Source of the DNA: Amoebophrya sp. A120
Taxonomy: Eukaryota; Protista; Dinoflagellata
Reading direction: 5' to 3'
NCBI GenBank assembly: GCA_905178155.1
Contig: CAJINV010000011.1
Span: forward strand, 1,015,982 to 1,079,981
DNA: 64,000 nucleotides
Position numbers and translations under genes: made by a program. Below the pieces are notes generated by a model. The model had not been told where the DNA came from, did no database searches, and saw nothing but the letters and a program-made list of their open reading frames with translations. Numbering within the stretch: position 1 is the first letter of the stretch; every line of letters begins with the position of its first letter. This document shows positions 1,771 to 64,000 of the stretch, piece by piece.

Positions 1771-4700
1771 ATGGCGCGCGGCGGAGGTGGCAACAACAAC
1801 CGTGGTTCCGGCGGCTCGGACCAGACGCATGCGCCGCCGGATATGAAGAGCTTCCAGAATACCGCCATGGACCTGTTTCAACAACCCACTGGATTGGGCA
1901 GGACCGGGTCCCGCAAAGGCTCGAAGGAGAGCAAGCAGGCGGCGCGGAAGAAGCTGCAGGGCTTGCACGCAGCCCGGACGAACTACAAAAACCCGCAGAA
2001 GATCGCGCTGAGTATAGGTGGAGTGGTGTTGGCGGTTATGATCTTGGTCATTATCATGGACAAGCTGATGCCACCGAAGAACTTGGGGGGAAAAAACAAC
2101 CGAGGCAACTACAAGGACCGGGAGATGGGCGGTGGTTCTTCTGGAGGTGCGAATGGTAAATCCGGGACAACGGGACAAGGAACAGGAGGCGGAAGTGCGA
2201 ATAAGGACGGAGCCCAAGGCGGAACTTCTGGACAGCCAGGGGGTGATAAGAACGGGGCTCAGGGCGGAAAAGACGGATCAGGGACAACGGGAAGCGGGCC
2301 ATCTAAGGGCGATCAGACTTCCACTTCGAGTGGCTCTGGAGGCAGTTCTTTGGGAAGTAAGCAACAAGACAAGTCATCCGGCAGCTTCGATTCAGCCTCG
2401 AAGAAAAGCAGTGACTTCAGCGACGAAAATAAGGGACTGTCCTCCGCTGGGCAGGAAACACGCACCAGAACAGCGAAAGGGGACAATAATAGTCTTGACG
2501 ATGACCACAAGCTCTTTGACAGCGACGAGGACCTTGACGAACACGCGTCCAAAAACCGGACGAAAAAGGGCGAGAAGCTGCTCGCAGCAGACGACTCGGC
2601 GGTGACGTTACGGAAGTTGCGGATCCGGGCTGCGCGCGAGTTAGGTCCTTCTCGGAGGCAATTGTCAAAATTGAAAAATCTGTTGAAGGAGAAACTGACC
2701 ACGGAGAAACAGTGGGCGAACTTAGCAAAAGCGTGGATAAAGGGCGACTTTCTGGAGGACGATGCTGTTGTGGATCCGGTTTTTCGGATGCATTATGGGG
2801 ACAGCAATAGGAAATATGGTAGAATTGTGGAACAAGATCAACATCAAACTACTAGTGCAGATCAACACGAACCACGTCCTTACGTTTACAACGTGAGCAA
2901 AAACCACACGAGATTGATCCTGGCGATGGGTGGACAAATGTCGGAGCGGCGGTACTTGCACGATAAGTCGATGTTCACGCATAATTCCATCCAGCACTTT
3001 GGTGCGGTGATGGCGTTTTCCGAGTATTCGTGGCGGGAAAGGTTGCAGATTGACGAGGCGGAGGACGATGGCGCGAACCGAACCTTTTTGCAGTCCGCAG
3101 CAACATTGCAAACAAATTTTGATATTAGCACAAAAAAATCCAGTACTGCCACTTCTGTGGAATTCGACGCGGACGGAAACCGCCACGAAGTTGTACCGGA
3201 ACAAATCGAAGATACTGCGAGAACAGCATCAACATCAAAAAAAGAACAAGAAGAACAGCAAACGCAAACGAAAGTCTTCCAAGAAGTCGTGCGACTTTTC
3301 TCGACCGACCCAACAAAAACCGACGTGAAGCCGCTCGCGCTGGTCACAGTCCGGGGGAGGAAGCAAATCCGCCCTGACCCGCGGTTTTTCAGCGAAAATT
3401 TGCTGTACAACCGGGAAAAGCTGAAAAGCTGGCACACTGTCGAATTGGCGAGCCTGTTCACGAAGCGGATTCTCTCGCTCTTTGGGTGGAAATCGGAATT
3501 AGAGAAGGAAACTTTTTTCCACGAGGTCAACCGCCGAGCAGTGGATTTGATGGTGGAAAAAACCGGGGAAGCTGCCTGGAAAGCCGACGTACCCAGTGAC
3601 GAACAATTGGACATGCGGACGCTCAAGATGCGAATGAAGTATTTGTGTTAATATTACTTGCGATAGTACATAAAGGAATTCGAATTGCGGGCACTAGTCC
3701 TATTGACTATCAGATTTGATGTGATATAAAATTTTCAACGGTGAAGTTATTCAATATGATATCACTTCAGGTACACGAAGCAGATCTCTAGTCCCCGCGC
3801 CGATCTCCTCTTTGCTCTCCAAGCCGCTTCCTCCCGCGAACGGCGTTTTCTCCATTGGGCAACGAAAATCAACGGCACCTGGGATTTATGCACTGCAAAA
3901 GCATTGCACTTCTAGTTCTAGTACAAATTGCATGACAAATATATTTGAAGAAGACAAGCGCAATTTGTCATGCTGCATAAGGTAGAAACTTAGATTTGTC
4001 ATGCGTGGCTGCAGTTTATACGAGACGAGCGCGATACTTCTGCACAGCATAGGATTTTCTCCCAACTGACGATCCGAACGATGAGGTTTTATCAAGTGTA
4101 AAAATGTCTGGGTCTGGAAGGATGCGAACTCGTGATGCGTGTTGCGGATCATACAAAAATCTGTGTTGCATGACTTGCAAAAGGTCCCCATTTCTGGCCA
4201 TGCTGAGAGGGCATTTCTCATGCAGTATAGGCATCACCAAGGGGCTGCAGAACCTGTGATGCTAGGCCCTGCATTCCAGACTTGCTGGAACTTGGAAAAG
4301 CTGCATGACAAATCTCGGAATCTTCCAGACCCAGACACTTTTACATTGGATAGTTCCTGGACTACCGCAACGCACACGACCTCTTCCGGCAGCTGGTGCC
4401 AGACATCTGGCAACACGACACCCAAGTGCCGGAGAAAAGTCGGTCCACCGTGGGTTTGGGGTTGTCGGATAACCGTCCGATGCCCCAGAAGTGGCAATCC
4501 GCGGGGTTCACCAGCCCGTTCATGCAGCCGCACAACCTGCCCGGGATGTTTCCGTTCTTGACCCAGGGAACCTATGTGCAATCCTTCCCGACGAACGCGA
4601 AAGAAGCGTCGAAGTTGAAAGATGAGGGCATGCCCGCAGTACCGGCTGCTGCAAAGAGTTCTAATACAACTTCTGGAACAAATAAAGCAGACTCAGCACC

Positions 4701-7700
4701 TCCTGCTTCGAAGGATAAAGACAGCACAACAACGTCCACCGGTGGTAGCGCCTCCACTTCTGCCAAGGACGAGGCAGCCGGTTCAACAGATACCAGCTCG
4801 AAAACTATGGAGAACGACGTGCAACTTGGCAGTACCAACAGCACCACTGGCACGGCGACAGAGACCAGCACGATAGGAACTTCTGGCAGCGCCGATCATT
4901 CGAATGCTGTAGCGCCGGCTAGTTCTTCTTCTTCACAAGAGACGGCACCTACAGGAACTGATAGCGGAACATCAACAGATTCGGTTGCTACTACGACTAC
5001 CACCACGACGACCACGGCTCCTCCGAAAACCCGTGCGGAAAAGGTTCAAGAAGAGAAGGCCAAGCTGGCGAGCGTGAAGGAGAAGTTTAAAACCCACCCG
5101 GACCCGTACAGCGAGGCCCACGCGAGCGACTGGCGGTGGAGCTTCATGCGTTTTTTCTTGATGTATTACTACCCGACGCACTTGATGCACAAGTGGAACC
5201 TGCAGAAACAGGCGAACTTTTGCGGAAACTTGTTTTCGTTCTACACGATGATCTGGGACAGATCGATGGACGAAGCGGTCTTGAAGATCCTCTTCGACGA
5301 AGCAACGGCCAACGCGCCGCCGCCGACGGGCTTGCTTTGGTATTTGGAAGAAAAGGAACGGGACGGCTGTTTACCGGCGCAGGTCGAGCAAATGGCGATT
5401 TTGAAGAAGGAGAAAATCGAGGAAATGGAATCGAAAGATTTGCGGAAAAGAACGTTCAAAACGTTCAGAACTTTTGAAAAATTGCGTGAAAAGTTCAGAG
5501 AAAAAGAGAAAGAGAAGAAAAACAAACAGGAAGTAAAACTGAATTTGAAGTCCTGCGGGCTAAAATCCTACGCGGAACGGAAACTACACGGGGAGACGAA
5601 AAGCTGGCAGCCGGAACGGAAGCCGACGAGGGTGAGGAACTTGAGAAGGTGTAGAACCAAGAAAGGAACGAACGTGTTTCACGATTTTTCTCCATCCTCG
5701 AATAATGATCCTAGAAGTAACAAGCACGACAAGGACAACAAACACAGCTCCCAACATCATGTGTGGAAAAAGCATGTTTTATCTAGCCGAGACAATTGGG
5801 ACGCGGTGATTACGAACCTGTGGACGAAGTGCGAGCGGGTGTTGGGGAACCTGCACGAATCTTGGAGGAACCGCGTGAGTTCCGCTTTAGCGGATCACGT
5901 GGAACTGGTGCCTTTGATTCCCACTTCCGCGGCGTTGCATATGGATTGCAAATATGTCTGAGTCTGGAGAAGTGGAACTGGTGATGCGTGTCTTCCATGC
6001 GTGGAAAATCTGTGTTGCATGAACAGCAAAAGTAGAGCAGCTTCCTTTGTCATGCAGAAACGCAATTTGTAATGTGTGCTAGGCATCAAAAGGCGTCGCA
6101 AAAACTTGTCATGCTTGGCTGCCGTTGCAAGAGGAAGCGCTTCAATCATGCGCAATTCAGCATCATAGGTTTGCAGACCCAGAAATACTTATTTGCAATG
6201 CATATTGCAGCAGTCCGAGCAATTGATGTCCTTGCGATTGTGGCTCTCCACCCGGGCGCAAATACCCGAATTGCTATCCTGTGCAAAAGTATCGCACTCG
6301 TACTAGTTCTTCCAGCTATGCATGACAAATCTTCTTCTGAAGGTACAACGGCATGACAAATTCCATTTTTCATGCGGAGCAAATTTGTATATGCATAACT
6401 GCTCCTTAGTCTTAGTGCGATAATTTTGTAATGCATAACTGCCAATGGAGCATTACACGCCAGCCGCGGTGCTGGTTGCCGGCGGGTCCGCAAGCTGGGC
6501 GGAAGAGGGAACGAGCATTGACGATGAAGTAGAAGTTCTTGCAGCAGAAGATCTTCAGGCGGATGAAGATGCTCTGGGTCCTCGTGGTGGCACAAATCGA
6601 AATATTAACCGAAGTAGCACGAAGATGAACAAGAGAACTGCACCAAAGAAGACTAAGAATAAGAAAACTCCATCTTCAACATCCCAGATCCGCTTAGATT
6701 ACCGCAAGCAGCGGCTGTTTGAGGACCTCGTTCTCCGAACAGGTGGCGACTTCCGCTTGAATTTTTTTCACAGCATTCCGGTCCAGGAGGGGATTGAGGC
6801 CGACTCGCAGTTGTTCCGGAGAAGCTTTTTCCCCTACACCATGGACTGGTCGCAAATCGGCCCGCCCTACACGATCGCGCGGGACGGCACCATTGTGCCC
6901 GCCTCGGGCTTGAATTTAGTCCATGGGGAGCGCTACCGGCTGACGACAAGCGGGTCCCGGGTGTCGGACATTTCCTCCGTCTCGACCACTGTTGGGTTAA
7001 GAGGGTATGGGGACATCGAGGATTTGCGGCAAAACGTGGTGCAAAGAGATAAAATCTTCGTCTTCGACGAGTACGCCGACCATTGGCGGAGAATCTTGGC
7101 CTCGATCGAGCAAATGTCGCCGGTCTCGAGGGATCGCTTGTATTTGAAGGAGGACGGGTTGGGGAAGCCGCTCAGTGAGAAGGAAAAAAAGCAAAAAGAG
7201 AAGGAGGACAAGGAAGACTTGGCTATGCGGAAGAAATCGCCGGGGTACCAACTGGCGCAAATGTCCAAAGAGGAACGGGCGGACTTCGGGGTGAAAATGC
7301 GCGCTCTGTCCGAGGACAAGAAGGCGATGGAACTGATAGAAAATTTCCAATTTGCCAGGCAGCAGTCCGCCGAGGAATTGCAGAAGACGGTGATACAGCT
7401 CGCGGAATCCATCGATTCCCACAACGAGAAATTGATTGGCGAGGACTTCGTGAACTTTTTAGACCAGAAGATCGAGCTGAAAGACGGGAAGCTGTTGCAC
7501 GTCACGCAAGAAGAGAAAGACTTCATCGTCAAGGAGTTCCTCGCGGAGATGATGCTGCTCAAGCGGGAACGGAACATGCTCCGAAACTCGATAGATCGGC
7601 CTGGAATGTGGACGGAAGACGGGCAGAAATTCATGGATGAGCTGAAGGGCAAATTTGCGGATCGGGACCGCTCCGACGACCGGGCTCTGGAAAAGTTCAT

Positions 7701-10700
7701 GGAGGTGTGTCCGCACAAGGATTTCCGGCCCTTTTTCGCGTTTCCGAAAGAGTCGAAAATGTTACAAGCGGAGTTTCAGAAATACGACGACAACGTGCGC
7801 AGGAAAACCTCGTGGGGAACATCAGATTTATATCCCACGAAAATAACCCATCCCCATCGTAATTGCTATTTTTTTTGCAAAAAACGCTAAAAAAAATTGA
7901 AAAAAAAACAAAAAAATTGCTACCCATGCGGAAGGGCTTCGTGGTGTTAGCTAGCACGTGACGACTATGACAGAAGCAGCCTGAGACGATTCATCTAGAA
8001 GTGTTTGCTTTGAATTAGCTAGCTCAAGGCATCCCCGGCGAAGCCGCGACAACAAAGCCACCGAAAGATGGGCGTCAGACAGGGAGACAGCGCCGGCTAC
8101 GGATACGCTTTAGGGCCGTCAGGGCCGTTGGTTTGCTTGCTTTTTCCCACATCACCGTCGCCATGTCTGCTTGCCACCACATCGCGACCATAGATGAAAG
8201 CCCGTGACCTGTTTTGTCCGTCGTTTTGGCCTCAATAGGTCGGCGAAAATTACCCATCCGGACAAATTTTTGCGACTTTTGAGCTTTTCGGATTTTTTCC
8301 GCAAATATCTGTTCAAAAAACCGGAAAAAATCAGATTTTTCTTTTTTTTGGCAAATTTCTTCAAAATTCCGAAAATGCAGAAAAATCTATCACGATGGGT
8401 TATTTTCGCCGACCTGTATAGGCAAAAAAGCCTACTTTTTTCGAAAAGTGGTCCGATTTTGATTTATCTGGATGGGTTATTTTCACCCGACCTGAGTCGG
8501 GCAAAAAGTTGCTCTTTTTTTGCTTCAAAGCCGGCTTTTTTGGGAAAAAAAAACTTGGGTTTTCGGGGTATACGGGTCGGCGAAAATAACCCATCCAGAT
8601 GATTTGCAAAGTTTCGCTATTTTACAAAACCCCAAAAAAGGCGAGCAAAAAGCGCGCGCCTGCCCCGACCTGAGTCCGTTGATTTGGCGATTTTTTTTCT
8701 TTCAAAAAAGTAAACACTCTGAGCGACATTTTAGCCGGACTCAGGTCGGGGCAGGCGCGAGCTTTTTGCTCGCCTTTTTTGGGTTTTTGAAAAGTCACGA
8801 AATTTTGCAAATCATCTGGATGGGTTATTTTCGACGACAACGTGCGCAGGAAAACCTCGTGGGGAACATCAGATTTACCGAGTCCGTGGCCGGAGCATGC
8901 GTTGGACGAAAAGTATGCGTCCAGAATGCAGAAGCGCGGGATGCTGAAAGGAGGGGAGGACGGGAATGTTCGAGTTTTCTATCGGGTTATCAAATTTTTG
9001 ATGCAGCGGTACGATCTCAAGCATATGACATACGATTACGGGTATGATCAGGACATTGCGGAGGGGAAAGCAGCATCATCATCATCATCATCCGAAGCAG
9101 GGCAACTGATACTGAACAACACGACTGCAGGAGATGCTGCTACTACCGCCGCGGACAGCAGCGCGCCGGAGCATTCCAAAGGTAAAAGCTTGTGGGGTTG
9201 GGCAGCAGCTTCTGCACCAGGAACAGACCCAGAAGGAGCACATGCCGCAACCGGTGCTCTTGCGGACCACGAAGTCGAGGATAGCGACACCAGTACCACG
9301 AATAAACTGGCGGAACCGAGGCTAAGGGACCAAGTTGCCTTCGACAGGGAAAAGTGGAAAAACGGCCCCAAAGCCCCCTCTGGCGCTGCCCCCGTGCGAG
9401 AAAGTGGGTTAGATCCCTCGGAAAGGGTGCTGGCCTTGGCGATGGACAATCTTTACGTGTCCGACCGCGGTAAGATGGAGCACATCACCCGGGAAATTGT
9501 CCACTTCGCCACGGCTCCGGAGTACGAAAAGTGGCCACAGGCGGCGTTCGTCCGGGATGAGTACCGGCGGAAAAGGCAGAACGTTTTCAAATTCAAGCCG
9601 ACCCCGGATTTTCCGATTTTCAGCACGGAAACGCAGAAAGACCTCCTGGCCCGCTTTGCGGACAAGCGGCAAGAAAGGCTGCACAAGAAGCACCTTCAGC
9701 CCGTTCCTGACGGGGGGAGCACTCCGATGAACTTCAACCTAGACGGGCCAATTGTAACTTCAGACGGGTCCTCCTCCGCGGGGCTATCGACGTCCTCCCC
9801 CATGTACGCGAGCTTATTACTGTCCGCGATTATTGAAGAGCGGGAAAAAATTGTGGAAAAAATGCCGTACATTGAGCGAGCAAGGTTGAACTACGAGAAC
9901 AGTAGAATTAGCCATAACTACCAGAAAGTGAATTCCCAAACGAAGAACAGTCAGGACGACCTGGAATTCGCGCAGGACGGGCAACTACAGTGGCTGTACG
10001 CGATGAAAACCGACAAATCCTGGCAGGCGCAGGTTTCTCTTGCAATCGCGAAGTCCGGAATCGGAAACAAAAACAGGTTTGACCACACGGTGTCCACGAA
10101 ATTCCACCAGTCGAAGTTTTTCGAGAAGTATTTGCGCACGACTCTGTCGAAGTCCCGGCATCGCAAGTGGCGCAAGGATTCTTTGCTGAAAATCTGGCTG
10201 TTTCGGAAAATCCAAAAGGACCGGGACGAGCAGGAATTCGATAGGGTGGAGGGAGATGTTGATCTTCAAGCTTCTTCTACGACAGCAATAGAGGAACAAC
10301 CTGCTGCAAATGCAATTGCAGCAGCTGCGCCATCAACAATAGTACATGAACCAGAGGCAGGGAATTCTACTGACGCAGCAGGAGCTCCTGTCGCGAACAC
10401 GACCACTGAGGACGCTACTAGCGCCGAGATGGACTACGAGAAGAACGAAACAGCTGACACCTTGCCTGCAGCCCCCTCGTCAAATGTCGATGCAACAAAT
10501 GATGAGACAAATGTAGTACCGCAAGAAGAACACTCACCTGCGAGCGCACATCAGAGTAGAAGGATTCCCCGCAAGAAGAACAAGCGCCCCCCCTCCGTTT
10601 CCCGCTTTGCTGATAGAAGACAAAAGTACGAAAAGTACAAAGAGCAGCTGGAAAAAAAGCTGACCAAACTCGGCGCGGTTCGGCAGAAACGCAACCACCG

Positions 10701-13700
10701 ATGGGTGATCCGGCGCATGCGCGAGCTGCAGATGGTGCTTTTTGGCGGTGGTGAGTTCCTCGGGTTTCACAAAAGAGCATCCACGGCAGTTCTCCCCAGA
10801 TTGTGCATCAGCTTGCACGCGTTGGACGGGAGGTTTTTGTTGGACAGTGAGAAGAAGGGAAGCTTCAAAGCGCGATTCCACTTCGAGGGGCTGCTGCAGC
10901 CCGGTCGTGGGGTTTATAACAAATGTGTTGGGATTTTCAGGAAGCAGTACGCGGCTGCGGCGCGGGTAAAGAAGGAACAAGATGAAATCGTCGGGGGTCA
11001 ACAGCAGGACGAGGGTCTTCGCGGTCCTCAAACACAGCATCAAATTCATAGCCCCCCAACCCTTGCAGAGTACAACCAAAACGTAAACAAGTGGGCTGCG
11101 AGCGCGCAGTCCTGGAGCGCTGGCATCGGTGCCCAATCCTCGTCCACCAAGCAGACGTCGCAAAAAAGCCTGTACTTCAACACCCGCACGAAACAGAGCG
11201 ACTTTTTCGTGCCGAAACACCGGGTGACGAAGGATAGGTCCGCGGCTTTTATCTCTACCCAGTTGATGAAAACCTACGCGAATTACTGGGCCTACGCGGA
11301 AGTCGGTCGAAAAATGTTTGCACCGAAGATGCTGCAGCACCACAAGGAAACCGATGAGGTCGATTTGTATATACTCGGCCTCTATGAACTGCAAAAGCAT
11401 CGCACTCGTAGCAATTGCAGTCATGCATTATACAAATCTCCATCCCAGCCCACGGTACAACAGCATGACAAATGGAATTTGTCATGCTGAAGTAAAACTT
11501 GTAATGCAATTGCTACTAGTACGATGCTTTTGCAATGCATAGCCTGCGGTTAGTCCCGTACTCGTCTGTAAAGACCTACCCCGTGGGGATGGGCCGGATG
11601 TACACAATCGACGACGACCGCGACAAGGATGTGAACCTCCCGGCCAAGTCCGCGCGGGAGACAATCAGGAATAAGCAGAAACTGTCCAGAGGGGAGCCGG
11701 GCACGGGGGAGTGGAATCGGAGAATAGACCGGGACCCAGTCGGGCTTTTCGCAACGAGAGAACTCCGGGCGGCGGCGTACCCGAAGTACAACGAAGAATC
11801 CGTCGGGTTGTTCAAGCATTTGAACAACGTGACGGTTACGGCCAAGCAAGCGAGCGTCGTCGTCGCGGGGTCGCAGGCGGTGGAGCAAGAGTCGTTATTC
11901 ACCCAAGCGGATGTGTCAAACACGCAAAGGGTAGCGATCCCGGTGCTGGGTAATAAAGATGTGGTGGACATTCAATACCCGGAATTGACGAAGCAAAGAC
12001 TAAGCCCGGGGTTGTTCAAGAAACCAGTGGAGATGAAAACCATCAACCAGGAGAAGGTTTTGAGCAACGCGAAATTCGAAATCGTGGAAAATTTGAACGC
12101 ACAGCTCCACTACAACGACCACTTGTACAGCTTTTTCACGGAGGAACTGAAGCAAGCAAGCGTTGGGACGAGGTGGGAGAAAAAGACCCCGAGAGTTAGT
12201 CCGAAGGTCGTCGCGTTTTTGCAGCAGCTCGCGGTGAAAGTCGCCTACGGGGGGTCGTGGTTCTACCACCCGATGAAAGTCGCGAGTTTGTACGATATGT
12301 TCATGGATTTAACCTACGGTATTTGCCACGGGTTGCGGCACCAGAGTGTGGAACTGTATCCCGATATGGCGAATCTGTTGTCCGCGAAAAAGACGTACAA
12401 AAGATTTGTGCAGATGGCAAGTCACTACGGGTTCCGACAGAAGCAGCACGAACTGTATTCGCGGCGAGTTACTAGGGCAAGGTGGGAAGAACTACAACGA
12501 CAAAACAGGGTGAAAAACGAAACTGCGTATGCGATGAAATTCTTGGAGCAAAAAGTCGTGGCGGAACAACAAGAAGCAAGGAGAAAGGCCGAATTGACGA
12601 TGCACTCGGAGTCGGTTCCGGTAGTTGTAGAAGCGACGATAAATGATAAAACTGCACCAGTCTTCACTTCTGTGCCGACGGAGCAGGTCGGGGGTAACAG
12701 CACCACTTCTACTAGTACGATGGTACAAGAGCCGGCGGACAAATTCGCAGAAGAGAGCGGAAACAACACAAGCACTGGACGAGCTGCCTATCCCGAAGCG
12801 AATCAAACTGCAGCTGAAGATGTTTCTCGTACTACTGATGCCGACGGTGAGATCATCGTGGATAGAAAAAATGCTTCTAACAATGACACCACAACAAGTG
12901 ACAAAATCTTGTGGTGGAGTCCACCGGCTGCATCTCCGTCGAATAAAGAAGCCCGTCAAGTTGAAGATGCTCCTACCTCCCCCCCGCCCGCGCTGTTTTC
13001 CGAGGTGCATAGAACAAGTGCTGCCAAAGACCTGCGCAGCAAAAATCGGGATGTTGACAACGATCCAAATAATTCCGATCTCCCGCACAACCGAAATCGG
13101 GAAGAACCGACCCTCCTGACTAGCCGGGACGCCGAGACGGCGGTGATCAGCAAAAAATACTACACCTTCGGCCTCCACCCTGCGGACAAGAAGTTGGTGT
13201 TACTTTCCTTGGAAGTGTCCGACGACGAGGCAAAAATTCCCTACTGGGAGGTGCGCGACGACGTCGCTTTGTTCGCCCGGATGAAGGGAAAATACGCGTA
13301 CAATTGGGACTATGACAGTGCGCAACTCCCCCTCTCCCTCATTTGCATGGCATGAGCAGCAACACAAGTCAAGGCATAACTGCAGCTTTTGCATGACAAA
13401 TTCGCGACCGATTATAGTGCTGTTTCGGCTTCCGGAATCTGTCATGCAAGTTGTAGTGACAAAGGGGAAAAAGTGGATTTGGTATTCTGCATGACAAATG
13501 AGGGGAAGGGGGAGCTGTGCACTGTCATAGGGACGAAAAATATGACACGGACGACGCGATTTTTCTGCGCAATCCGCATCTGGACTTGGAAAAATTGGCA
13601 GCGACTACCACGTTCACCACGAAAGAACAGGATTTTTTGCAAGCTGCCGGGGAAAACAAGAAAAGCGCAGCAGCTTCTGCTGGTACTACCGTACAGGGCT

Positions 13701-37250: not shown

Positions 37251-37970
37251 TGACGCAGCTCCCTGCTTTTGAAATATAAAATTTTGGAGTACTACACGAA
37301 AGAAAAATCACGATGTCGTGTAAGTTTCTGACTCGAGGTTGTCGTCTAACATTTTGACCACAAGTAGCTTAGTACGAGGAGATCGCATAGAAGTTTTAAC
37401 TCCTCACTCGTGTATGATGCTGTTGAGGATGAAATCGTGCAAATTTAGGTCAATCAAACGAAGTAAGTGTCTTTTATTTGACCTAAGCGACATATACGAC
37501 AACGACTACGACAAGAACGTACTAGGTGCAGGTAGTTGTACCCACTGGTATTACAACCAAGATGCAGCTCTCAGTGAGCTTGCCAGCCAACAAGCCCTGT
37601 ACTAGAAAATGAAAATAGAAGCGATTCGCGCAAAAAAGACAGCCTCCTTGCTGCGCCAAGAAAAGAAAGGCCCAGGCTCCGATGTTGCAGTCTTGAACGA
37701 CCCTCGATGTTCAATAGCAGCGACATGCTCGCTTGCAACAACGACACTTCGACGCTCCTGTTTCGCCCGCCGTTCTTGTGAAAACGATGGTGCGTGCACA
37801 CTGCTTAAGTGCCGTGTTGTGTCGTGGCCGCTGACTTGAGTGGCGTTTTGAAAGGTAACAAGGTTACCATAGGCGTCGACTGACACGGAAGTAGTCCTCG
37901 ATAACTACCACTGCATGAAGACGAAGAACAAGAGGGAATGCAAGCTCAACCCAGCAGCTAGTACGTGACT

Positions 37971-40078: not shown

Positions 40079-40935
40079 TTCCATTTGCGCTATATTCATA
40101 TCCGTGTGGGTAAAAACAACTAACTTTGAATTTTTGACAACTAAGCGCCTGCTTCGAGTTCTTGTTCTGTGACCAAAAGTACCACCAGTGCATTTTAGTA
40201 GTGATGAACGCCAACGCGATAGAATGAAGATGTTGTGGTCGACCATGCGGGTGCCGTGACCCTAGCAGTGCATTACATAAAAGTTTTTCAAAAGTACATC
40301 GTTTCGACGACGTGATCTATTTCTTGCGATCGCAGCTTTTTTCTGCTTCCAGCAACAGTGTCTGGACAAATCGGTTCTGGGGAAGATATCTTCACTTCAA
40401 ACCATTTACATCCAGAAAACATTTTCGACACTGAAGTGTTGGAGAAAGCTTCGTTTCGATAGTTTGCCTCTGTGAATATCCGAGCTGTAGTGGTGGCACT
40501 AAAAAACCGGATTTACTGAACTTTCAGAGAGTCAGGATGTGGCACTGAGTCACGACGTTATTCTTATTTCTAAAAGAAGAGAGTACCTATAATTGGAAGG
40601 GCGGGCCGGCGCATGTTCGGAGTGTAAACAAAGACGAGAGTTATGATGTTCAAGTAGCAGCGTTGAGGTTGCACATCTTGTTGTCACGAGTAGAGCTACA
40701 CCTACACTGCGCATCATTAAAAATGCTGGCATTGTGGATGCTTCATTCGTCGCTGCACAGACACGACTCATCCTGGCTGAGGAAGAGAACTTCGCCATGT
40801 GTAACTGGAGGAGCACAGCGTACACCTGCCAGTCGTGCTGAACCGCGGGTCACGACCACCGCGTCAACCTCAACCGGGCTGTCGTCTTCGTGGTAGGCAG
40901 AGGTGTATCCCATCCGCAACCAGCACTAGTGGATC

Positions 40936-45574: not shown

Positions 45575-45716
45575 AGCATATCGAATGTAAAAATGTCTGG
45601 GTCTGGAACATTCTGACGCTTGTCATGCACGTTTTGCATGAGCCCTGATGTCTGTGATGCATGCCCTAGCATCACAGATTTTTTCAGAGCTTCTTGATGC
45701 CTATTCCGCATGACAA

Positions 45717-45816
45717 NNNNNNNNNNNNNNNNNNNNNNNNNNNNNNNNNNNNNNNNNNNNNNNNNNNNNNNNNNNNNNNNNNNNNNNNNNNNNNNNNNNN
45801 NNNNNNNNNNNNNNNN
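45717..45816. other. Scaffold gap (100 N)
   Basis: Run of 100 n. Confidence 1.
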
Positions 45817-51800: not shown

Positions 51801-54800
51801 TCTGCTTTTTGGATATCAAGTAAAAAAGCAGTTGCACAAATAGTCGCAGGACACACTAATCGCACTCGCACATCACCAGATAGCAGAAAACATATCAACA
51901 CCGGCAGTTCCCCGCGCCAACTCGCAGACCCAGCTGGACAAGATTCTTCACCACGGTGGGTTATCAAATGCAAAAATGTCTGGGTCTGGAGGAGTGGAAA
52001 CTTGTCATGCATATTTCCATGTCCCAGGAGGTTTGGCATGCAGGAGCTAGCATGACAGATTCTGCGAAGTCTCTATCAAGCCTATCCTGCATGACAAACT
52101 GCCACGAAACTTGTTCAAACGTGGACACCTTTTGGTAATCATGCAACACAAATTTTTGCACTATCCAGACTTAGCATGACAAGTTCCAACCTTCCAGACC
52201 CAGACATTTTTGCATTTGATACGGGTCGGTTCTGGACAACATTCACGAGGTGGTGAACGAAGTGAAGCTCATGGACAGCCAGAATCCGCATTCTCTAAGA
52301 GCCTTTGTCGCGAAGAAGAAGCTGCTGCTCTGGCTGTTCATGGAAGAACCGTTTCTCACCCCGGTTTCCACGGCTTACTCCCTCGGGATGATTGTGCTGG
52401 TCGTGTTTGGGTTTTACACTGCAGTGAAGCCACAGGTACTCATTTTTACGAGCATTCAGAACAACTGCTGCGATTTCTTGCAATGCTGTGAATGCTGCGA
52501 ATGTTGTGTTTGTGATGCATAAAAATAAAATTAAAAGCAATTATGACGACAAAAACTAGACCTACGAAGCCTTCACCGGTGAGTTCCACGATACCGCCTG
52601 GGTGGAGGAGAAGCTTTTTTGGTGGACGTTCGCAATTAACCTCATCTGCACGCTGGAGACCGCACTACGCTTCTCGGTCGCACCGGTGAAGATGAAGTTC
52701 ATAAACCAAGTTTCGAACCTGTTCGACATTCTGGCGGTGCTCCCCTTCTGGATCAACAATTGTTTCCGGCTAGACAAACACGTCTCCCCCGGCCTCCGTT
52801 ACATCTCCGTTTTCGGTGCGGTTTTCTGGTTGGTCAAGCTCTGCAGATATTTCCCAGGTTGGTACCTACTCCGCATGGCATTGCGGAACAGCATGGCGGC
52901 TTTGTTAATCCCGGTGTTTTTCCTGTTGATGATGGGTGTTGCGGGGGCGTCGCTCGTGTTGACGTTTGACTGGATTTCTGCCGTGAACGGCGGGATCCCC
53001 TTGCAGATCTCTTCCTGGATGAAGGCTTTTCACTACATCATGGTGGTCACCATCTCCATCGACGTATCACCAGTTTACGGGACCGCGGCGCAATCCGCCT
53101 TGGCGCAAGCGATCGCGGTGTTGTGGATGTATTTGGGTGTGATTTTCCTCTCCATGCCCATCGCAATCGTGGGAACGTGCTTCTCCCAGACCTGGTTCGA
53201 CCAGGACAGAATCGTGTTAGTGGAGAAGGTCCGATCGAGAATGCGGCAGCAGGGGTACACGACGGACGACTTGCGGGAGGTTTTTGACGAGGTGGATGAG
53301 GACGGGTCAGGCGAGATCGATTTCTACGAGTTCAAGCGCATGCTCGAAGCGTTCCACTTCTTCGCGCCGATCGGGAAAACGAGGAAACTCTTCAACCACT
53401 TCGATACTAATGGGACAGGCTCAATAAGTTATCAGGAGTTCGTCTGCGTCATTTTTCCCGAGATCACCGACATTGTCGACTGGGACACGCAACGGGTGGA
53501 TCGAGACGCTTTGGAGGTGATAGAGGAGGTGGAATCCGATTTGGAAGAAGACTCCTCCGCCCTGTACAGCAGTACCGGCAGTAGTGGTGCGGATGATGAG
53601 AGCTCGGAGTCGTTTCTGCAAAAACGATCTAGATCGCAGTCGTTGGACAAAAAGTCGGTGAACTTTTCGAAGACAAGTAGCGAAGACGAGGAGGAGGACG
53701 AGGATGGGCCGGCGCGGTTGAGCATCCCGGGGCTGATATCGAAGGGAAAATTGGTCGTGCACAATCCTCTAAAGGAAGAAAAGCCTGATGCTGGTCGTGA
53801 ACCGCCTGATAAAGACAATAAGAGTGCAACTACAGCTGCAACAGTAGGAGCTGCATCAGAACCACCTCCACCAGCAGATGACAGCACAGCCGGCGGGGGT
53901 GGCGAAAATGGTACAGATGATGCAAAAGCGGAACAAGGCGTGGTCACGCAACAAGACAACCCCACTCCCGACTTGAACGACAGTAGCATGTTGATCAACG
54001 TTCCAGATCATGACACCTCTTTCGCATCATCCGGGAAAAAAAATCAAGCCACGTCACAGAAACAAGCACCAGGCGGCACAAATCCACGCGAGGAAATCGG
54101 CGGTAGCTCTGGATCTTCAAAAAACTCAAAGGAAGAGCAGGCGGACAACCCAGCAGATCCGAATCCTGCGTCACCAATGGCAGCAGGAGCCAATGACGCC
54201 CCACCACCTCAGAAAAACGGCGAAGAAACTTCTACCCAAGTAGAAATGAAGCCAGAATCACCGCCTCCCGACGACCCCGTCCCGGAGCGCGTTGTCCCGC
54301 GCAGAAGGCAGCAGAGCAGTACCGCCCGTCCGAGGATTGGCACAGTGGAGTCCGTAGCATCACGAGCGTCGAGGCGGTCCACGCGGTCCGGGAGGCGAAG
54401 CAGGCGGGAGAGCAGTGGTCGGCGGTCGTCTAATCGCGACGAAAACGGCGGGAATTCCGCAGTAGAGAAGAACAGCTCCCTGGTTTCGGCGTTGAGCGTC
54501 GCGGCGTTAAATCTGGGGAAAGCGGCAATACGAAGAGGAAGCTCCATGGTATCGATTTTGGCTGTGAGAAGATGATGCTCTACCATGTTGCAACATTTTC
54601 ATCCACCTCGCAGAATTTTGATTTTTTAGTAGAGGTGTCGCACAGTAGAAGCACTCCTGCAAACCGCAATCGCACTACACAGGTTTCCCTCGGACCCAAC
54701 GACGAGGAACTGCTGGGTCAAAACATCGTGGTGGACAAGGGCGTAATGCGCCGGACCCGGTCTACCGACGGCTTTGCGGCGGGCTCGCTCACCGGCAGCT

Positions 54801-55486
54801 TGGGGCTTGCCTCCGGCGGAACCAGTCCGCCGCCACGGGGCGGCGCGCTGGCCGCCATGGCCTCTGGTGGTAGATACTAACTTTTTGCCGAAAAAATTAT
54901 CGGGAAGATGATCTTGATGGAAGACATGCAAGTGCCGATGTAGTATTTCTTCTAGTGAAGAACAAGCTCCTTGTTCGAAAACAAAAAATCGCACCCACCC
55001 CTGGAGGTTCCTCCATTACAACAGGTCCGATCCCACGCGGCAGACGTTCGGGTGGAGAGCAGCTACAATCAAGACCTTCTGGCGGCGCAGCAACGGCCAG
55101 TTCCACCAAATCTTCTGCCAGACCACTTGAACAAGCCGTCGACGGAAATATTAATCTCGTCCCTGTTGCTCGCACTCTTTCCGCCGGCGCCGCCAGGGTG
55201 TCTCCGGCCAGTGGCGCTGCCGGCATTTTCAGTTCCCTGTTTGGTCGGAGTTCTTCGAGGAAGACCGACGCAGCGAGGGGGGCCCCAGAGATCACGACAA
55301 GCGCTGCGATGGGGGGAGGTGGAGGTGGAATCGTGCCAACAACAAGCATATCGAATGTAAAAATGTCTGGGTCTGGAACATTCTGACGCTTGTCATGCAC
55401 GTTTTGCATGAGCCCTGATGTCTGTGATGCATGCCCTAGCATCACAGATTTTTTCAGACCTTCTTGATGCCTATTCCGCATGACAA
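45817..55486 (+). repeat. 9.67-kb near-identical duplication, copy 2
   Basis: Matches 36047-45716 at offset 9,770. Confidence 0.95.
47741..49848 (+). CDS. Choline/ethanolamine kinase (duplicate copy, probably the same locus)
   Basis: Same as 37971-40078. Confidence 0.75.
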
Positions 55487-57509
55487 ATGCCCTCTCCGCG
55501 CAGCAAAAATTACATTCCTTTTGGTACTCATGCAATACAGATTTTTCTGGAATCCAAATGTAGCATCACAAGTTGCATTCTTCCAGACCCATACACTTTT
55601 ACATTTGATAAAGCAAACTCGGCGTTCTTACCGGGAAAACCGCGTCGCCGGTAAGAGGGGCGTGGGTGATCTTGATCGGACTATACTTTTTTACTTTCAG
55701 CTCCTTCTTCTTCATCGTCTATGCCGCTGCAGCTCTTTTTGTGGCTCAGCTTGCACGCACGAAAGATGATGAGCTTTTTAACAAAAACAGGTCGAGGCCG
55801 CGCTCCGCCAGAGTTTTGGCGCCACACACCTTCTTCGCCAGTCGCATACAGCGACAGATAGCCGCAGAAGCCTGTTGCATAACCCGAACTCCGCCGTGGC
55901 GGCAGTCTCAGACGCCGATAGTGCGCTCCTGCGCACGAGCGTGACAGCCACTGGCGGAGGTCTTACTACAACCGGCGCAACTGCAGCACCAGGCGGTGGC
56001 CCCGTGAAGAAAACGCGGTCAAGGGGGATGAAGACAAAGGATCAGAACAAGCGTGGAGGTCGAGGAGGCCAGAACGGAACGGGATCATCTGGGGGAATAA
56101 TCAGCGGCAGTTTTGATCCTTTGAACAACAGCACGGGAACATCAACAGCTGCAAGCAGCGTGCCTAATTCGCTACCCCACAGCGTAGGTACACTATCGAG
56201 CCTGCAGCACCGGGAGCAGGCTGGAAACGGTACTCTCTTCGGCACTCACGTGGGCTCACGAGGGGGTCCGCCGGGTCCGGGTGGGTTTTGGCTCGCCGGC
56301 GGATTCGGAGGTGCAGTGGGCGGGAACAGCGGTGGAAATAATTCAAATATCGGAGGAAGTGGCGGGAGCAACAGTGGCAGTGCTGGGAACAGCAATGTTG
56401 ACCTTCCGACCGTTTTACAACGAGTCACCGCACGAGTGACCACACTGGAGCAGCAGCTGAACCAAATCGCTGATTTCCAAAAGCAGTGTCTGGCGGTGTT
56501 AAGCTCGACCAACTTGTCCTCCACCAGCTCGCCGTCTAATGCCGGAGGCAATGGTGGTACCGCGACAGCACCAAACGGTGCAGGAGCTGCTGCTGGTTCC
56601 ACAGCGTCCTCTTCCCAGACTTCCTCAGTCTCGAAAATGGCATCGTTGACCCTGGAAGCGCCACAGTCTTCGAATCAGCGCCGCGGCAGCAGCTCCAGTC
56701 GGCGCGGCAGTACGGCGAGTAGAAGGGGAAGTGCGGTCAGCAGGAGAGGGAGCACTGCGAGTAGGAGGGGGAGTGTGGAAAAGGAGATGAATCAGCAGCA
56801 TGGCGTCATACCAACTGCAAATGCAAATTCGACAGTCACCATACCGGGTTCTACTTCCCTGCCGTTGAAGAACCACAGACGCGGAAGTTTGGAGAAGATT
56901 GCCGGCGTTTTGAATTTGGACCGACTCGTCGCGTCCACCAGTTTGATGGGCACTTCTTCCCAAAACCACCGACGCGCATCCAGGACCAGTATCATCACCT
57001 CCTCGGAGTTCTACCGCGGGCTCGGAGCGTCCCAAACGCTGCCGGGCAGTGGGGGTGCGGGGACCGGAAGTGTGAATTTAAGGCGGTCGAGCAATTTGGG
57101 CGGCGCGCGGAGCAGCCTGATTGTTCCGGGAGGTCGAGGCTCGGTGTCTTTGGGTGGACCAGGGAGTAGTGGCGCAGCTGGTGGTCCTTCAGGGGCAGCG
57201 TTGGTAGAGATCGTGTCGCACGAAAGTGGCGGGGGTCAAAACAGTAGTACGTCCTCCTTTGGACTGGATATGAACAACGCAGCTGCTGCTGTAAAAAAGA
57301 AGCTGCAGATCAATACAGATCTGAATGTCGAGCGGGAATTCGTGCAAACACCTTCGGAAGATCTTCAAAACAGCAGCACGGGGGGAGGCGGTGGTACAAC
57401 TAGTAGTGGAGCAGGAGGGCCAACGACGAATCAAGATGCCGGTCCTCCTGGTCGTTCGCAACAACAAGAAACCACCAGCCAGGAACCGGAAGTGTATCCG
57501 GAGCAGTAG
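50706..57509 (+). CDS. 6-TM Kv-superfamily-like ion channel with two EF hands and long disordered tail, ~1,751 aa
   Basis: Exons 50706-50816, 51136-51694, 51908-51957, 52223-52435, 52560-54548, 54683-54869, 54956-55344, 55612-55650, 55791-57509 (5,256 nt, open). S2/S3 ETALRF...NLFDILAVLPFWI, S6 GVIFLSMPIAIVGTCF, EF hands DEDGSGEIDFYEF and DTNGTGSISYQEF. Confidence 0.8.
55349..55610. mobile_element. Introner, family A (262 bp)
   Basis: Family A TIRs; TSD AAGCA/AAGCA; restores TTSKLGVL. Confidence 0.93.
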
Positions 57510-62000: not shown

Positions 62001-64000
62001 ATGGTCGCCACTTGGTCTGCGTATTTCGATCGGGTGGCGCCCAAGGCCGCCGGTCTTGCGGCCGGGTACCCCACCGTGCTTGCCGCCGTCCTGGGTTTCG
62101 CCGTTGCGGGCTTGATTTTGCGGCAGAAGGCGTCGATCTTCCGGAAAATCGAGAAGGTCATTCTGTTTCCAGTGAATTTCACCGTGCGGGTGGTCGTTGA
62201 GCTGATTCTCTTCGTCAATAGCTGCTTTGAAAATTGCACGCTGCGCACCACCGTCGCGGTTGGGAACAAGCACTGGAAAAAAGTCACGGTCGCGGATCCC
62301 CACTACCCAGTACAGATCGAGTTCCGGCATTGTTCCACACCAGTACTTCTACCATGTACGGAGGAGAAGGATGTCGAAAAGGACAAGAAGTCGCCCTCCG
62401 CCATCGGGGGTGTCACACGAGAAGAAGCGCAGGGGCCACCTGCAACAGAGGGCTCTTGTTCCTCCGCTGCGCTCTCCATCGAGCACCTGTGGTCTTCCAG
62501 CGTGGCCCCCTGTACGCAGAAACTGCAACAGCAATCCACCCTCCTCTACGTCGAGCGTGAGCCAGCCTTCACCGGCAGCCGCCAGGGCACCCAGTCGTTG
62601 CACGTGCTGCAGAAAATCGTGCAAGGGTCGAGCTTATGCATTGCAAATATGTCTGGGTCTGGAAGGATGCAACCTGTGATGCTGTCTTTGGATTCTGAAA
62701 AAATCTGTATTGCGTGACCAACAAGAGGGGTCCATTTTGTGCTACGCGGAGAGGGAATTTCTCATGCGGAATATGCATCAGGAAGCCCTCCAAAAATCTG
62801 TGATGCTAGGTCACGCATTACGGGCATCATGCGACATAGAAGATATGCATGACAAACCTGGCTTTCTTCCAGACCCAGACATATTTGCATTTCATAGAGC
62901 TTGTGGGACCTGGCCTGTGATGTGCTGTACCGAACCATCGCGGGCGGGACTGGGTATCCTGTGCAAAAGTATCGTACTCGTATTGCGAGCATGCATTACA
63001 AATCTTTGTTGAAAGGTAAATCCGCATTACAAACTTTACTTCTCATGCTGAGGAAATTTGTAATGCATTTATACGAGTGCGATACTTTTGCAGTTCATAC
63101 TGGGTACCAAGCGACAAAAGCGGCCGCGTTTTTCAAGTTCTTGAAAAACTACCGCACGATGGCGCCGCAGCTGGACTACTTGTTCGACCACAGCACGGAT
63201 CTGTACGGAATCGGTTTGACGCACAAGGCGCCGGCGCTGTGCTACCGGTCGGATTTTTTGACGAGAACGGAGAAGAAGGTCGAGGAGGGGGCGCTGGAAT
63301 TAGTGGCGGGGAAGAGTATAATTTGTTCTACATGTGGACTTTTTTAGTACGTGTTTTCTTTCACTAGCGATGATTCTGAATTGGAATAACAGTAGTTTGT
63401 TCCCTTTACTAGCTTTTTTTCATCATCGTAGCGCGGTCGCTCCTGTCAGCGTCGCATGAAGACACAAGAAGATTACGAACTCACATCCTGCTTCAAAACT
63501 AACCCCTCAGGACGCGGGCTCCCCGACTATGGCGAGGAGGTTGAGGCGGTGGAAACCCCGTTAGAGTTCTACCAGCTTTTGAAGCCGCACTTGAAGCAGG
63601 TGATTGCGCCGACGGACGTGCAATCGCTTTTCCGCATCATCCGCCTACATGCGGTTGACGTGAGCAACAGTTCGATGAACAAAAAGGTGAAAAACCGAAT
63701 CCTGGGTTTGTTTGACATCATGGCGTTTCTGCCCCACAGCGACAAGGATCCCAACTGCTTCCTCTCCGTCCACAACGGGCAACTCGAGCTGTACAGCTAC
63801 GACAAAAACGTCCCCGACTGGAGAAAAATAACAGTAAATCGCTTGAGTTTGGAGAACAGCATGCTGTGTGTGAAAAAACGGAACTTTGTGAAATCCGAGA
63901 TGGGGGACTTGGAAACAGTGTCCCTGTGCGGTGGAAAGGGTGCGGGGGAAGCCGGAAGTCAAGCTGATAACAACAGCAGGAAGCAACAAGCGCTGGAGCA
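62001..64000 (+). CDS. Divergent SET-domain (SMYD-like) protein with hydrophobic N-terminus, runs off window
   Basis: Exons 62001-62630, 62898-62950, 63101-63315, 63511-64000 in frame. GLFDIMAFLPHSDKDPNC...ITVN resembles the SET motif GLYxxxSLFNHSCxPNC...ITISY. Confidence 0.55.
62635..62896. mobile_element. Introner, family A (262 bp)
   Basis: TATGCATTGCAAATATGTCTGGGTCTGGAAG TIR; TSD GAGCT/GAGCT. Confidence 0.93.
62955..63099. mobile_element. Introner, family B (145 bp)
   Basis: TATCCTGTGCAAAAGTATCG...CGATACTTTTGCAGTTCATA; TSD CTGGG/CTGGG. Confidence 0.92.

What the first reader, a model, noticed from the sequence alone, without database searches (positions are those of the whole stretch)
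3887..63099. A second intron system: at least 22 TIR/5-bp-TSD introners removed without GT-AG signals
Seen: 22 unique 145-326 bp inserts in coding exons, from about 7 families with dissimilar sequence. All start TAT and end ATA (one GTA), and 20 have a perfect or one-mismatch 5-bp duplication of arbitrary sequence. Deleting element plus 5 nt restores the frame in every case, including inside the choline kinase and channel genes. For 21 of 22, none of the six equivalent registers gives GT-AG or GC-AG, while ~13 ordinary GT-AG introns occur in the same genes. Established: inverted/direct-repeat non-canonical introners were reported in Amoebophrya (Farhat et al. 2021, recalled from memory) with the mechanism unresolved. 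Inference: removal is directed by the paired TIRs and the TSD, not by U1/U2AF dinucleotides.
Basis: partly seen in the sequence, partly recalled or inferred. Interest (0 to 1): 0.85.

Follow-up and report, generated by a model that had tools for sequence, protein, structure and literature searches.

The report
Transposon introns removed without splice signals
The genes of this marine parasite (Amoebophrya A120) are interrupted by small jumping-DNA elements that mostly lack normal splice signals and are missing from the RNA where it could be checked, likely because their paired ends are recognised as a hairpin; the elements are already published, but how they are cut out is still unknown.

Summary
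The window is Amoebophrya sp. A120 (100% match to an annotated protein). The 22 inserts fit the TAT-start introners of Farhat 2021; Gozashti 2025 lists 5-bp TSD and TA/TA termini for one A120 family.

Checked here: 20 of 22 have a 4/5 or 5/5 duplication; paralogous empty sites prove it is a TSD. Removing element+5 nt (plus one 1-kb insert and three GT-AG introns) yields one 6,580-aa ORF. RNA-type contigs lack element 38303-38507 plus 5 nt in 4 of 4 runs (one sample), but that element has a GA-AG register.

In 292 copies from a related assembly I found features absent from the texts I read: both orientations in transcripts, no enrichment of GT-AG registers, an internal GCAT[GCT]ACA motif in pairs 30-33 bp apart in 26 of 31 clusters, and a palindromic target preference 11 and 13 bp outside the TSD. 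These point to one shared transposase. Removal is likely directed by end pairing, like SOS splicing or Euglena introns; the enzyme, cut register and need for the TSD are untested. Earlier scan notes report similar elements in other dinoflagellates.

The parts
3887..4051 (.). Introner, family B (~150 bp), perfect 5-bp TSD, one GA-AG register
4090..4352 (.). Introner, family A (~262 bp), TSD 2/5, the only one with a GT-AG register
5940..6204 (.). Introner, family A, perfect TSD
6275..6437 (.). Introner, family B, TSD 4/5 (synonymous difference)
7831..8831 (.). 1-kb insert with TAT-C-N6-AAA left end, truncated right end, own internal inverted repeats, flanked by a 46-bp direct repeat; no GCAT[GCT]ACA motif
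   Evidence: DNA contigs break at both repeat copies; no RNA cover
11383..11541 (.). Introner, family B, TSD 4/5 (synonymous)
13311..13529 (.). Introner, ~220-bp family, perfect TSD
14471..14691 (.). Introner, ~225-bp family, TSD 4/5 (synonymous)
19354..19679 (.). Degenerate introner, 326 bp, TSD 2/5 in register; a 4/5 copy lies 3 nt further out on the 3' side
   Evidence: offset read from the sequence
21938..22199 (.). Introner, family A, perfect 32-nt TIR, perfect TSD
22280..22559 (.). Introner, ~280-bp family, perfect TSD
22591..22854 (.). Introner, family A in the opposite orientation to 21938 in the same gene, TSD 4/5 (synonymous)
23509..23664 (.). Introner, family B, perfect TSD
24702..24963 (.). 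Introner, family A, TSD 4/5 (synonymous)
34753..35073 (.). Introner, ~325-bp family, ends GTA, perfect TSD; empty site in the paralogous segment at 36349-36353
   Evidence: joint 34747->35074 in X5 (ambiguous because the exon segment is duplicated)
35136..36337 (.). 1.2-kb element with degenerate TIR (17/30) and a motif pair near its 3' end, flanked by a 73-bp duplicated exon segment
36374..36522 (.). Introner, family B, perfect TSD; empty site in the paralogous segment at 35094-35098
36567..36775 (.). Introner, ~209-bp family, perfect TSD, no canonical register
   Evidence: joint 36560->36775 (skip 214) in X3, same junction in X4 and X5
38303..38507 (.). Introner in the choline kinase gene, perfect TSD, one GA-AG register; absent with 5 nt from RNA-type contigs
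   Evidence: (4 of 4 runs, one sample)
41051..41364 (.). Introner, ~310-bp family, channel gene, TSD 4/5 (synonymous)
   Evidence: no RNA joint seen
42192..42451 (.). Introner, family A, channel gene, TSD 4/5 (synonymous in the long frame)
   Evidence: no RNA joint seen
55349..55610 (.). Introner, family A, perfect TSD
62635..62896 (.). Introner, family A, perfect TSD
62955..63099 (.). Introner, family B, perfect TSD
1771..26053 (+). Host gene, predicted 6,580 aa, no Pfam match in 3 exons tested; holds 13 introners, the 1-kb insert and 3 GT-AG introns
37971..40078 (+). Host gene, choline/ethanolamine kinase (P0001, Amoebophrya sp. A120)
45817..55486 (.). Second copy of 36047-45716 behind a 100-N gap, with second copies of five elements; likely an assembly duplication
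   Evidence: P0001 has two accessions

Best explanation
These inserts are non-autonomous DNA transposons of Amoebophrya A120 with TAT...ATA inverted ends and a 5-bp target duplication, likely mobilised by one shared integrase-like transposase, and they are likely cut out of the RNA with one copy of the duplication by a machine that recognises the paired ends as a hairpin rather than GT-AG signals. Insertion (anatomy shown, enzyme inferred): the ends read TAT[CG]N6AAA, the interior carries GCAT[GCT]ACA sites in same-direction pairs about three helical turns apart, and targets are chosen with T and G at 13 and 11 bp left of the duplication and C and A at 11 and 13 bp right of it, as a symmetric protein-DNA complex would do. 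Removal (product shown at one clean locus, mechanism inferred): the ends pair in RNA whichever strand is transcribed, both cuts fall within a few bases outside the stem so that five flanking bases in total are lost, and the exons are joined. I judge a protein nuclease plus RNA ligase route, like SOS splicing or Euglena non-conventional introns, more likely than the spliceosome. Because the two 5-mers are copies, any of six registers restores the original message, which lets the elements land almost anywhere in exons.
For: TSD: 228 of 292 copies found by TIR alone have a perfect 5-bp repeat, 40 have 4/5, none has a perfect 6-9-bp repeat; reciprocal empty sites in the duplicated exon segment. 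Must be removed: (length+5) mod 3 is 100/87/81; with frames called separately left and right, element+5 (mod 3) is needed in 42 of 48 copies with TSD >=4/5; 6,580-aa ORF. Is removed: joint 38297->38508 in 4 of 4 runs, on the same contigs that lack a GT-AG intron in X4 and X5; P0001 reads through. No GT-AG selection: 11 of 184 exonic copies have a GT-AG register, 10.0 +/- 3.0 expected. No polarity: family A 45 vs 62 orientations, all 8 families tested in both. Ends pair: 7-15 of the 15 terminal pairs form in the predicted fold of all 22. One transposase: motif in 22 of 22 window elements, 67 hits vs 1.7 expected, 6 in 49 kb outside; 30-33-nt pairs in 26 of 31 clusters, null mean 5.5, max 13; A at +13 in 52% vs 22% and C at +11 in 49% vs 28% of 518 half-sites, repeated in the window (25 of 44, p 7e-6). 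Precedents: ITR-pairing-triggered, RTCB-ligated SOS splicing (PMC12779559); Euglena hairpin introns with fixed spacers (PMC12501133); U1 snRNA not detected in A120 (PMC7789003).
Against: The only unambiguous RNA joint is at an element that has a GA-AG register; the joints at elements without any canonical register lie in a duplicated exon segment and can be read two ways. The four runs are one sample, are contigs, and 'RNA' is the tool's guess. No joint was seen for 41051 or 42192, and the first lay (12 elements) listed none: RNA cover was thin and the DNA run swamped the table. No transposase or autonomous partner was found; Farhat reports none in A120. SOS splicing is imprecise and leaves indels, while this must be mostly precise. 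Five of 22 elements fold no better than resampled sequence (z above -2: 3887, 5940, 6275, 19354, 38303). Nothing here tests the enzyme. Families may share ancestry, so 26 of 31 is not 26 independent events. A at +13 is absent in one family (1 of 14 half-sites), and the 1-kb insert has no motif.
Confidence: 0.55

Rival explanations
1. A modified U2-type spliceosome removes the elements: the hairpin and a dedicated factor replace U1, and the constant TAT/ATA ends serve as signals that work in both orientations.
For: A120 keeps nearly all spliceosomal proteins and U2/U4/U5/U6 but U1 was not detected (PMC7789003). Fritillaria splices mostly non-canonical introns with its spliceosome (abstract start; review passage). 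G[TCA]-AG registers are 20 in sense vs 8 in antisense among 184 copies. TSD mismatches in transcript sense fell from position 1 to 5 (13/9/6/8/3, hand count).
Against: The 20 are below the 23.5 expected from random TSDs. No polar signal is needed (both orientations). In the frame-filtered set the mismatch gradient is weak (7/4/5/6/3). Intron ends would be arbitrary at one or both ends in every register.
Confidence: 0.33
2. The elements stay in the mRNA: cDNA junctions are reverse-transcriptase template switches across hairpins between direct repeats, and ribosomes hop between the duplicated codons (a 5-bp repeat always holds one in-frame codon).
For: Hairpin plus direct repeat is the known recipe for template switching (own knowledge). 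All RNA evidence here and in Farhat 2021 is cDNA-based as far as I read.
Against: Contigs X4 record 9 and X5 record 15 run through 38303 unbranched, which needs near-complete skipping at one of the weakest hairpins (z -1.3). In 4 of 7 window mismatches the difference lies in the duplicated in-frame codon itself. The phase bias that a hop might predict is largely explained by DNA target preference. Thirteen hops in one 6,580-aa gene are implausible.
Confidence: 0.04
3. The elements are excised from DNA in part of the cells or nuclei, so RNA comes from empty alleles.
For: They are DNA transposons by anatomy; X3-X6 may hold DNA.
Against: The same contigs lack GT-AG introns. DNA run X1 contigs break at the elements and no clean empty-site joint was among the 15 joints listed (577 not shown). 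Precise excision with loss of one TSD is rare for cut-and-paste elements (own knowledge).
Confidence: 0.03
4. Transcripts use ordinary GT-AG sites near, but outside, the TSD register.
For: One window element has a GT-AG register and two a GA-AG register; 15% of A120 canonical introns have IR/DR organisation.
Against: The joints seen skip exactly element+5. Farhat finds 65% of RNA-supported A120 introns non-canonical. I did not enumerate nearby cryptic sites.
Confidence: 0.04

Closest known systems
Introner elements / non-canonical introns of Amoebophrya sp. A120 (Farhat et al. 2021, PMC7789003; read: abstract, sections 11, 12, 16, passages, supplement legends and part 4; figures not seen)
   Same: Same genome. 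IR motif starts TAT, seven variable bases, then at least three A; direct repeats of 3-5 nt (5 bp in the Fig. S19 legend); mean length 240 nt; hairpin; RNA-supported; mechanism open.
   Different: The paper treats DR length and position as variable, finds no family-specific IR motif and rules out general transposase mobilisation in A120. Here the TSD is uniformly 5 bp, and a shared internal motif and shared target preference argue for a common transposase.
A120 introner family 38 and other TIR families (Gozashti et al. 2025, PMC12130899; read: passages and rows 1-40 of 58 A120 rows of supplement file 8)
   Same: [quoted passage not shown]
   Different: Family 38 is about 810 bp with Copia/Gypsy-like homology; no such ORF was found in the window or loci. 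[quoted passage not shown] I could not map window families to their family numbers.
SOS splicing in C. elegans and human cells (PMC12779559; read: abstract and passages)
   Same: DNA transposons removed from mRNA by ITR base-pairing, rarely at GU-AG, apparently without the spliceosome, ligated by RTCB.
   Different: Imprecise, leaves indels, only a subset in frame; animal factors AKAP17A and CAAP1. The paper does not mention Amoebophrya (0 hits). Homologues in A120 were not tested.
Non-conventional introns of Euglena (PMC12501133, read: abstract, discussion; review PMC11282704, passages)
   Same: No GT-AG, terminal pairing, TSD-like repeats, probable MITE origin, cut sites set by spacers from the paired motif, coexisting with GT-AG introns.
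   Different: Different code (N3CDG ... CHGN5-6|R), a purine preference at the exon start, unrelated lineage; circular excision products shown there, untested here.
Retroviral-type integrase targeting (HIV-1 consensus TDG|(G/V)TWA(C/B)|CHA, PMC4176367, passages)
   Same: 5-bp duplication with a weak palindromic T-N-G ... C-N-A preference around it.
   Different: Here the T-N-G and C-N-A lie 10 bp further out on each side and the duplication itself has no consensus; ends are TAT/ATA, not TG/CA. A resemblance only.

Membership tests
Amoebophrya A120 introner elements (Farhat 2021) | Occurs in the A120 genome | tested here: met
   P0001 'Amoebophrya sp. A120' is 100% identical to a window exon and matches the spliced gene
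Amoebophrya A120 introner elements (Farhat 2021) | IR motif TAT + 7 variable nt + at least 3 A at both ends | tested here: met
   Positions 11-13 are A in 88-95% and position 4 is C/G in 96% of 598 ends (TAT itself was the search criterion)
Amoebophrya A120 introner elements (Farhat 2021) | 3-5-nt direct repeat at the exon/intron boundary | tested here: met
   20 of 22 window elements and 268 of 292 related copies have >=4/5
Amoebophrya A120 introner elements (Farhat 2021) | Repeated family, removed from RNA at non-canonical ends | tested here: met
   20 of 22 cluster with other copies; removal seen for 38303 in 4 of 4 runs, though that copy has a GA-AG register
Non-autonomous TIR DNA transposon (MITE) | TIR, fixed-length TSD, no coding capacity, empty paralogous sites | tested here: met
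Non-autonomous TIR DNA transposon (MITE) | Cognate autonomous element with transposase | tested here: inconclusive
   Three longer family-A copies (481-834 bp) read as cargo insertions by eye; no viral-contig hit; whole genome not held
Ginger transposons | TG...CA termini | tested here: not met
   Ends are TAT...ATA; that Ginger ends are TG/CA is recalled; PMC12130899 says family 38 lacks Ginger termini
Ginger transposons | Integrase-related transposase | not testable with these tools
   No autonomous copy in hand
U2-type spliceosomal intron | GT/GC-AG ends in some register | tested here: not met
   21 of 22 window and 172 of 184 related copies lack one; count at chance level
U2-type spliceosomal intron | Lariat product, U2/U6 dependence | not testable with these tools
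   Needs bench data
SOS splicing substrate | Paired ITRs in exonic RNA, cuts in or near the ITRs, non-GU-AG | tested here: met
   (pairing is predicted, not probed)
SOS splicing substrate | Imprecise, multi-site excision with indels | tested here: inconclusive
   One product only at 38303; an off-rule cut inferred at 35136-36337; contigs drop rare variants
SOS splicing substrate | Dependence on AKAP17A, CAAP1, RTCB | not tested
   No A120 proteome or query sequences in hand
Euglena non-conventional intron | N3CDG ... CHGN5-6|R signature | tested here: inconclusive
   The conserved ends here are TAT[CG]N6AAA, a different motif; the signature was not scored register by register

The most novel reading that the evidence does not exclude
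Amoebophrya A120 runs a precise, genome-wide, spliceosome-independent splicing system, a perfected counterpart of animal SOS splicing, that measures its cuts from an RNA stem and ligates exons at tens of thousands of sites. All the introner families it serves are moved by one undescribed integrase-like transposase that binds helically phased GCAT[GCT]ACA pairs and reads its target one helical turn outside the 5-bp cut (T-N-G N10 [TSD] N10 C-N-A).
Probability: 0.35. Interest if true: 0.88.

Novelty: already known. Interest (0 to 1): 0.5.

Why it matters
The elements and their odd ends are published, so the headline is not new. The open question is how about two thirds of a eukaryote's introns leave the RNA without splice signals. 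This follow-up narrows it: the signal works in both orientations, canonical dinucleotides are not selected, and five flanking bases are lost even where the duplication has decayed. It links the case to SOS splicing, described after the A120 paper; none of my searches showed a paper making that link. The shared internal motif and the distant target preference contradict the published view that a common transposase is ruled out, and give a search image for it. A precise hairpin-directed excision system paired with a near-random inserter would be of interest for intron evolution and as an RNA tool.

Tried and rejected
Whole genome not held, so no genome-wide census or transposase search. First read lay (3780-23779, 12 elements): 2026 raw RNA runs X9 and X10 laid only 18 and 6 reads, mostly 90-99% alike and on element ends; X3 cover was thin; the DNA run filled the joint table, so no junction was read. 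Second lay gave no joint for 41051 or 42192, so the cut register at mismatched TSDs stays open. No listed holder is on record as RNA. Two searches for the annotated giant protein found nothing; length windows stopped at 2,635 and 5,000 aa. The representative search returned paralogues and relatives, not the window's own gene-3 protein. Rfam: 0 matches. Viral contigs: 0 matches to the family-A end pattern.

Idea that both TSD copies are read (variable register): 7 of 7 window mismatches are synonymous (with the frame of 42192 corrected by hand from the three-frame print), but that set made the hypothesis. In the independent set 15 of 25 were synonymous (39 single-mismatch copies with flanks, 14 dropped by the frame filter; neutral expectation 8.3), p 0.07-0.21 against a fixed register with one free copy; 0 of 5 two-mismatch copies were fully synonymous. 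Suggestive only.

Phase bias 90/47/47 as a sign of ribosome hopping: rejected, since four target positions alone predict 0.42/0.25/0.34 (the fit is not complete). RNA pairing of the distal flank bases: rejected, the two sides are anti-correlated. TSD conservation above neutral: not testable, element ages unknown. A single fixed register: stop codons exclude registers 4-5 at L005 and 3 at L086, while the 1.2-kb element suggests a 5' cut at -1; unresolved. Displaced repeats: three perfect repeats sit exactly 3 nt out (L005, L025, L046; a stricter-end rescan recovered one); this fits a ruler cut with selection for frame or a 3-nt transposase overhang equally. Motif text search found no relevant paper among 15 listed of 238. 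Not seen: Farhat figures, files 13-14 and A120 rows 41-58 of the Gozashti supplements, Roy et al. 2023; these may already hold the motif or the target preference.


Full report
Observation. All start TAT; 21 end ATA and one GTA; lengths are 145-326 bp. The flanking 5-mers are identical in 13, differ at one base in 7 and match at 2 of 5 in 2. A TIR-only detector makes 24 calls in the window and none in five resampled controls. All host genes are on the + strand. Removing 13 elements with 5 nt each, one 1-kb insert with one copy of its 46-bp repeat, and three GT-AG introns gives a single 6,580-aa ORF for 1771-26053. One element has a GT-AG register and two have GA-AG. The block 36047-45716 is present twice around an N gap, likely an assembly duplication.

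Identity. A kinase exon matches one protein, 100% identical, named Amoebophrya sp. A120; its sequence reads through element 38303 as element+5 removal predicts. Farhat et al. 2021 (PMC7789003) describe for this strain IR motifs that start with TAT, run seven variable bases and end in at least three A, with 3-5-nt direct repeats, 29,850 repeated copies and no detected U1 snRNA. Gozashti et al. 2025 (PMC12130899) list family 38 as TIR DNA with '5-bp TSD, TA/TA Termini'. The finding is therefore a rediscovery in the genome where it was described.

The repeat is a true target duplication. A 73-bp exon segment is present twice (34737-35135 and 36338-36564). The first copy holds element 34753 and has a single 5-mer where the second holds element 36374; the second has a single 5-mer where the first holds 34753. 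A scan of metagenome contigs with the family-A end gave 162 loci, 418 kb, on contigs of a related assembly whose copies reach 96% identity to window copies. There, 292 elements found by TIR alone have a perfect 5-bp repeat in 228, 4/5 in 40, and never a perfect 6-9-bp repeat.

The elements are removed. Length+5 is spread evenly over the three frames, so read-through cannot be the rule. With frames called separately on each side (55 of 292 passed the filter), element+5 modulo 3 is required in 46, including 42 of 48 with TSD >=4/5 and both copies with 2/5; the three with 0-1/5 fail and are probably mis-paired ends. In four contig sets guessed to be RNA, all of one sample, the joint 38297->38508 skips exactly element+5 in 4 of 4; in X4 and X5 the same contig also lacks the GT-AG intron at 38886. 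That element has a GA-AG register, so it is a weaker witness than one would like. Joints matching removal of 34753 and 36567, which have no canonical register, are present but can be read two ways because of the duplicated segment. No joint was seen for 41051 and 42192, and the first lay gave none.

No canonical or polar signal. Among 184 exonic copies with a confident frame, 11 have a GT-AG register against 10.0 +/- 3.0 expected, and 20 have G[TCA]-AG against 23.5 expected (8 on the antisense strand). Family A lies 45 times in one orientation and 62 in the other, and all 8 families tested occur both ways; in the window 21938 and 22591 are opposite in one gene. Predicted folds close the terminal stem in all 22 (7-15 of 15 pairs), with z below -2 in 17. 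A signal that works on either strand is what paired ends provide; a branch point and pyrimidine tract would not.

Role of the TSD. Unresolved. Copies with decayed repeats keep the five-base rule. Three perfect repeats are displaced by exactly 3 nt. A 1.2-kb element with degenerate TIR (35136-36337) has the 73-bp duplication in place of a TSD; element+5 removal would give a premature stop, losing a C-terminal motif shared with homologues P0002 and P0003. A backward joint in X4 (36563->35074, five letters between) and the 27-letter side of the exit contigs in X3 and X4 imply an in-frame junction with cuts 1 nt before the left end and 6 nt after the right end (inferred, one low-depth locus). Single TSD mismatches are synonymous more often than neutral (15 of 25 vs 8.3), but not clearly more than a fixed register with one free copy predicts (p 0.07-0.21).

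Features pointing to one transposase. Window elements fall into 10 clusters. Pooled ends read TAT[CG]N6AAA. An internal motif GCAT[GCT]ACA is in 22 of 22 window elements: 67 exact hits in 5,132 nt against 1.7 expected, and 6 hits in 49,097 nt outside. Same-direction pairs 30-33 nt apart occur in 26 of 31 clusters and singletons (null mean 5.5, maximum 13 in 2,000 trials); three helical turns suggests DNA binding sites (inference). Target DNA shows a mirrored preference outside the duplication: C at +11 in 49% (background 28%) and A at +13 in 52% (22%) of 518 half-sites, repeated in the window (25 of 44 for the 13 position, p 7e-6; 20 of 44 for the 11 position, p 0.01) and seen in 7 of 8 families for A at +13. 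The two sides are anti-correlated, so this is not RNA pairing. It largely explains the codon-phase bias 90/47/47. It resembles the HIV-1 consensus TDG|...|CHA (PMC4176367) moved out by 10 bp; with the Copia/Gypsy-like homology of family 38 this makes an integrase-like enzyme the best guess. No such enzyme was found. I did not find these features in the passages and supplements I read, nor by searches; figures and some supplement files were not visible.

Mechanism and rivals. The best reading is hairpin-directed cutting and ligation outside the spliceosome (0.55). SOS splicing (PMC12779559) shows that ITR pairing can trigger RTCB-dependent removal of DNA transposons from mRNA, though imprecisely, and Euglena introns show fixed spacers from a paired motif. 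A modified, U1-less spliceosome is the main rival (0.33). Template-switch artefact with ribosome hopping, DNA excision and nearby GT-AG use are each at 0.03-0.04. None of the enzymatic steps was tested.

Verdict. Observation confirmed, interpretation partly supported, novelty 'already known'. Interest 0.5: the phenomenon is published, but the mechanism is open and the added rules make it directly testable.

Noticed in passing
window 36047-45716 and 45817-55486: 9,670-bp block repeated with one mismatch across a 100-N gap; the kinase is annotated twice (two accessions). Likely an assembly duplication.
   Followed up: partly
window 7831-8831: 1-kb insert with a TAT-type left end, its own repeated internal inverted motif, no GCAT[GCT]ACA sites, a truncated right end and a 46-bp flanking duplication; about threefold depth in DNA run X1. 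How it leaves the RNA is unknown.
   Followed up: partly
window 35136-36337: 1.2-kb TIR element with a 73-bp duplication; RNA-type contigs show copies of 35134-36026 elsewhere whose flanks on both sides share one sequence, as in a tandem array or circle. Similar in size to published A120 families 103 and 135.
   Followed up: partly
L031 632-1465, L063 571-1051, L064 3862-4492: Family-A elements enlarged to 481-834 bp by internal cargo, with TIR and perfect TSD intact.
   Followed up: partly
window 1771-26053: Predicted 6,580-aa protein without Pfam match in three exons tested and without a hit in two length-limited searches.
   Followed up: partly
window 28354-29516 and 30265-31392: The proline-rich 3' end of the dual-specificity phosphatase gene and its downstream region are duplicated at 83% identity, with an unrelated coding-like fragment on the minus strand between them (about 29600-30200).
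   Followed up: no
window 58688-61085: Gene whose product carries about ten copies of a conserved acidic repeat ending in a GMISSYGGVRRSKA-like motif; no Pfam match.
   Followed up: no
runs X9 and X10 on window 21938-22199: 2026 RNA runs with the same species label hold family-A ends at 90-99% identity but almost nothing of the exons: probably another strain with the same element family.
   Followed up: no
window 31754-37250: Membrane-protein-like gene without Pfam match in the exon tested; relatives found only as A120, A25 and AT5.2 proteins and one unnamed record among those looked up.
   Followed up: partly
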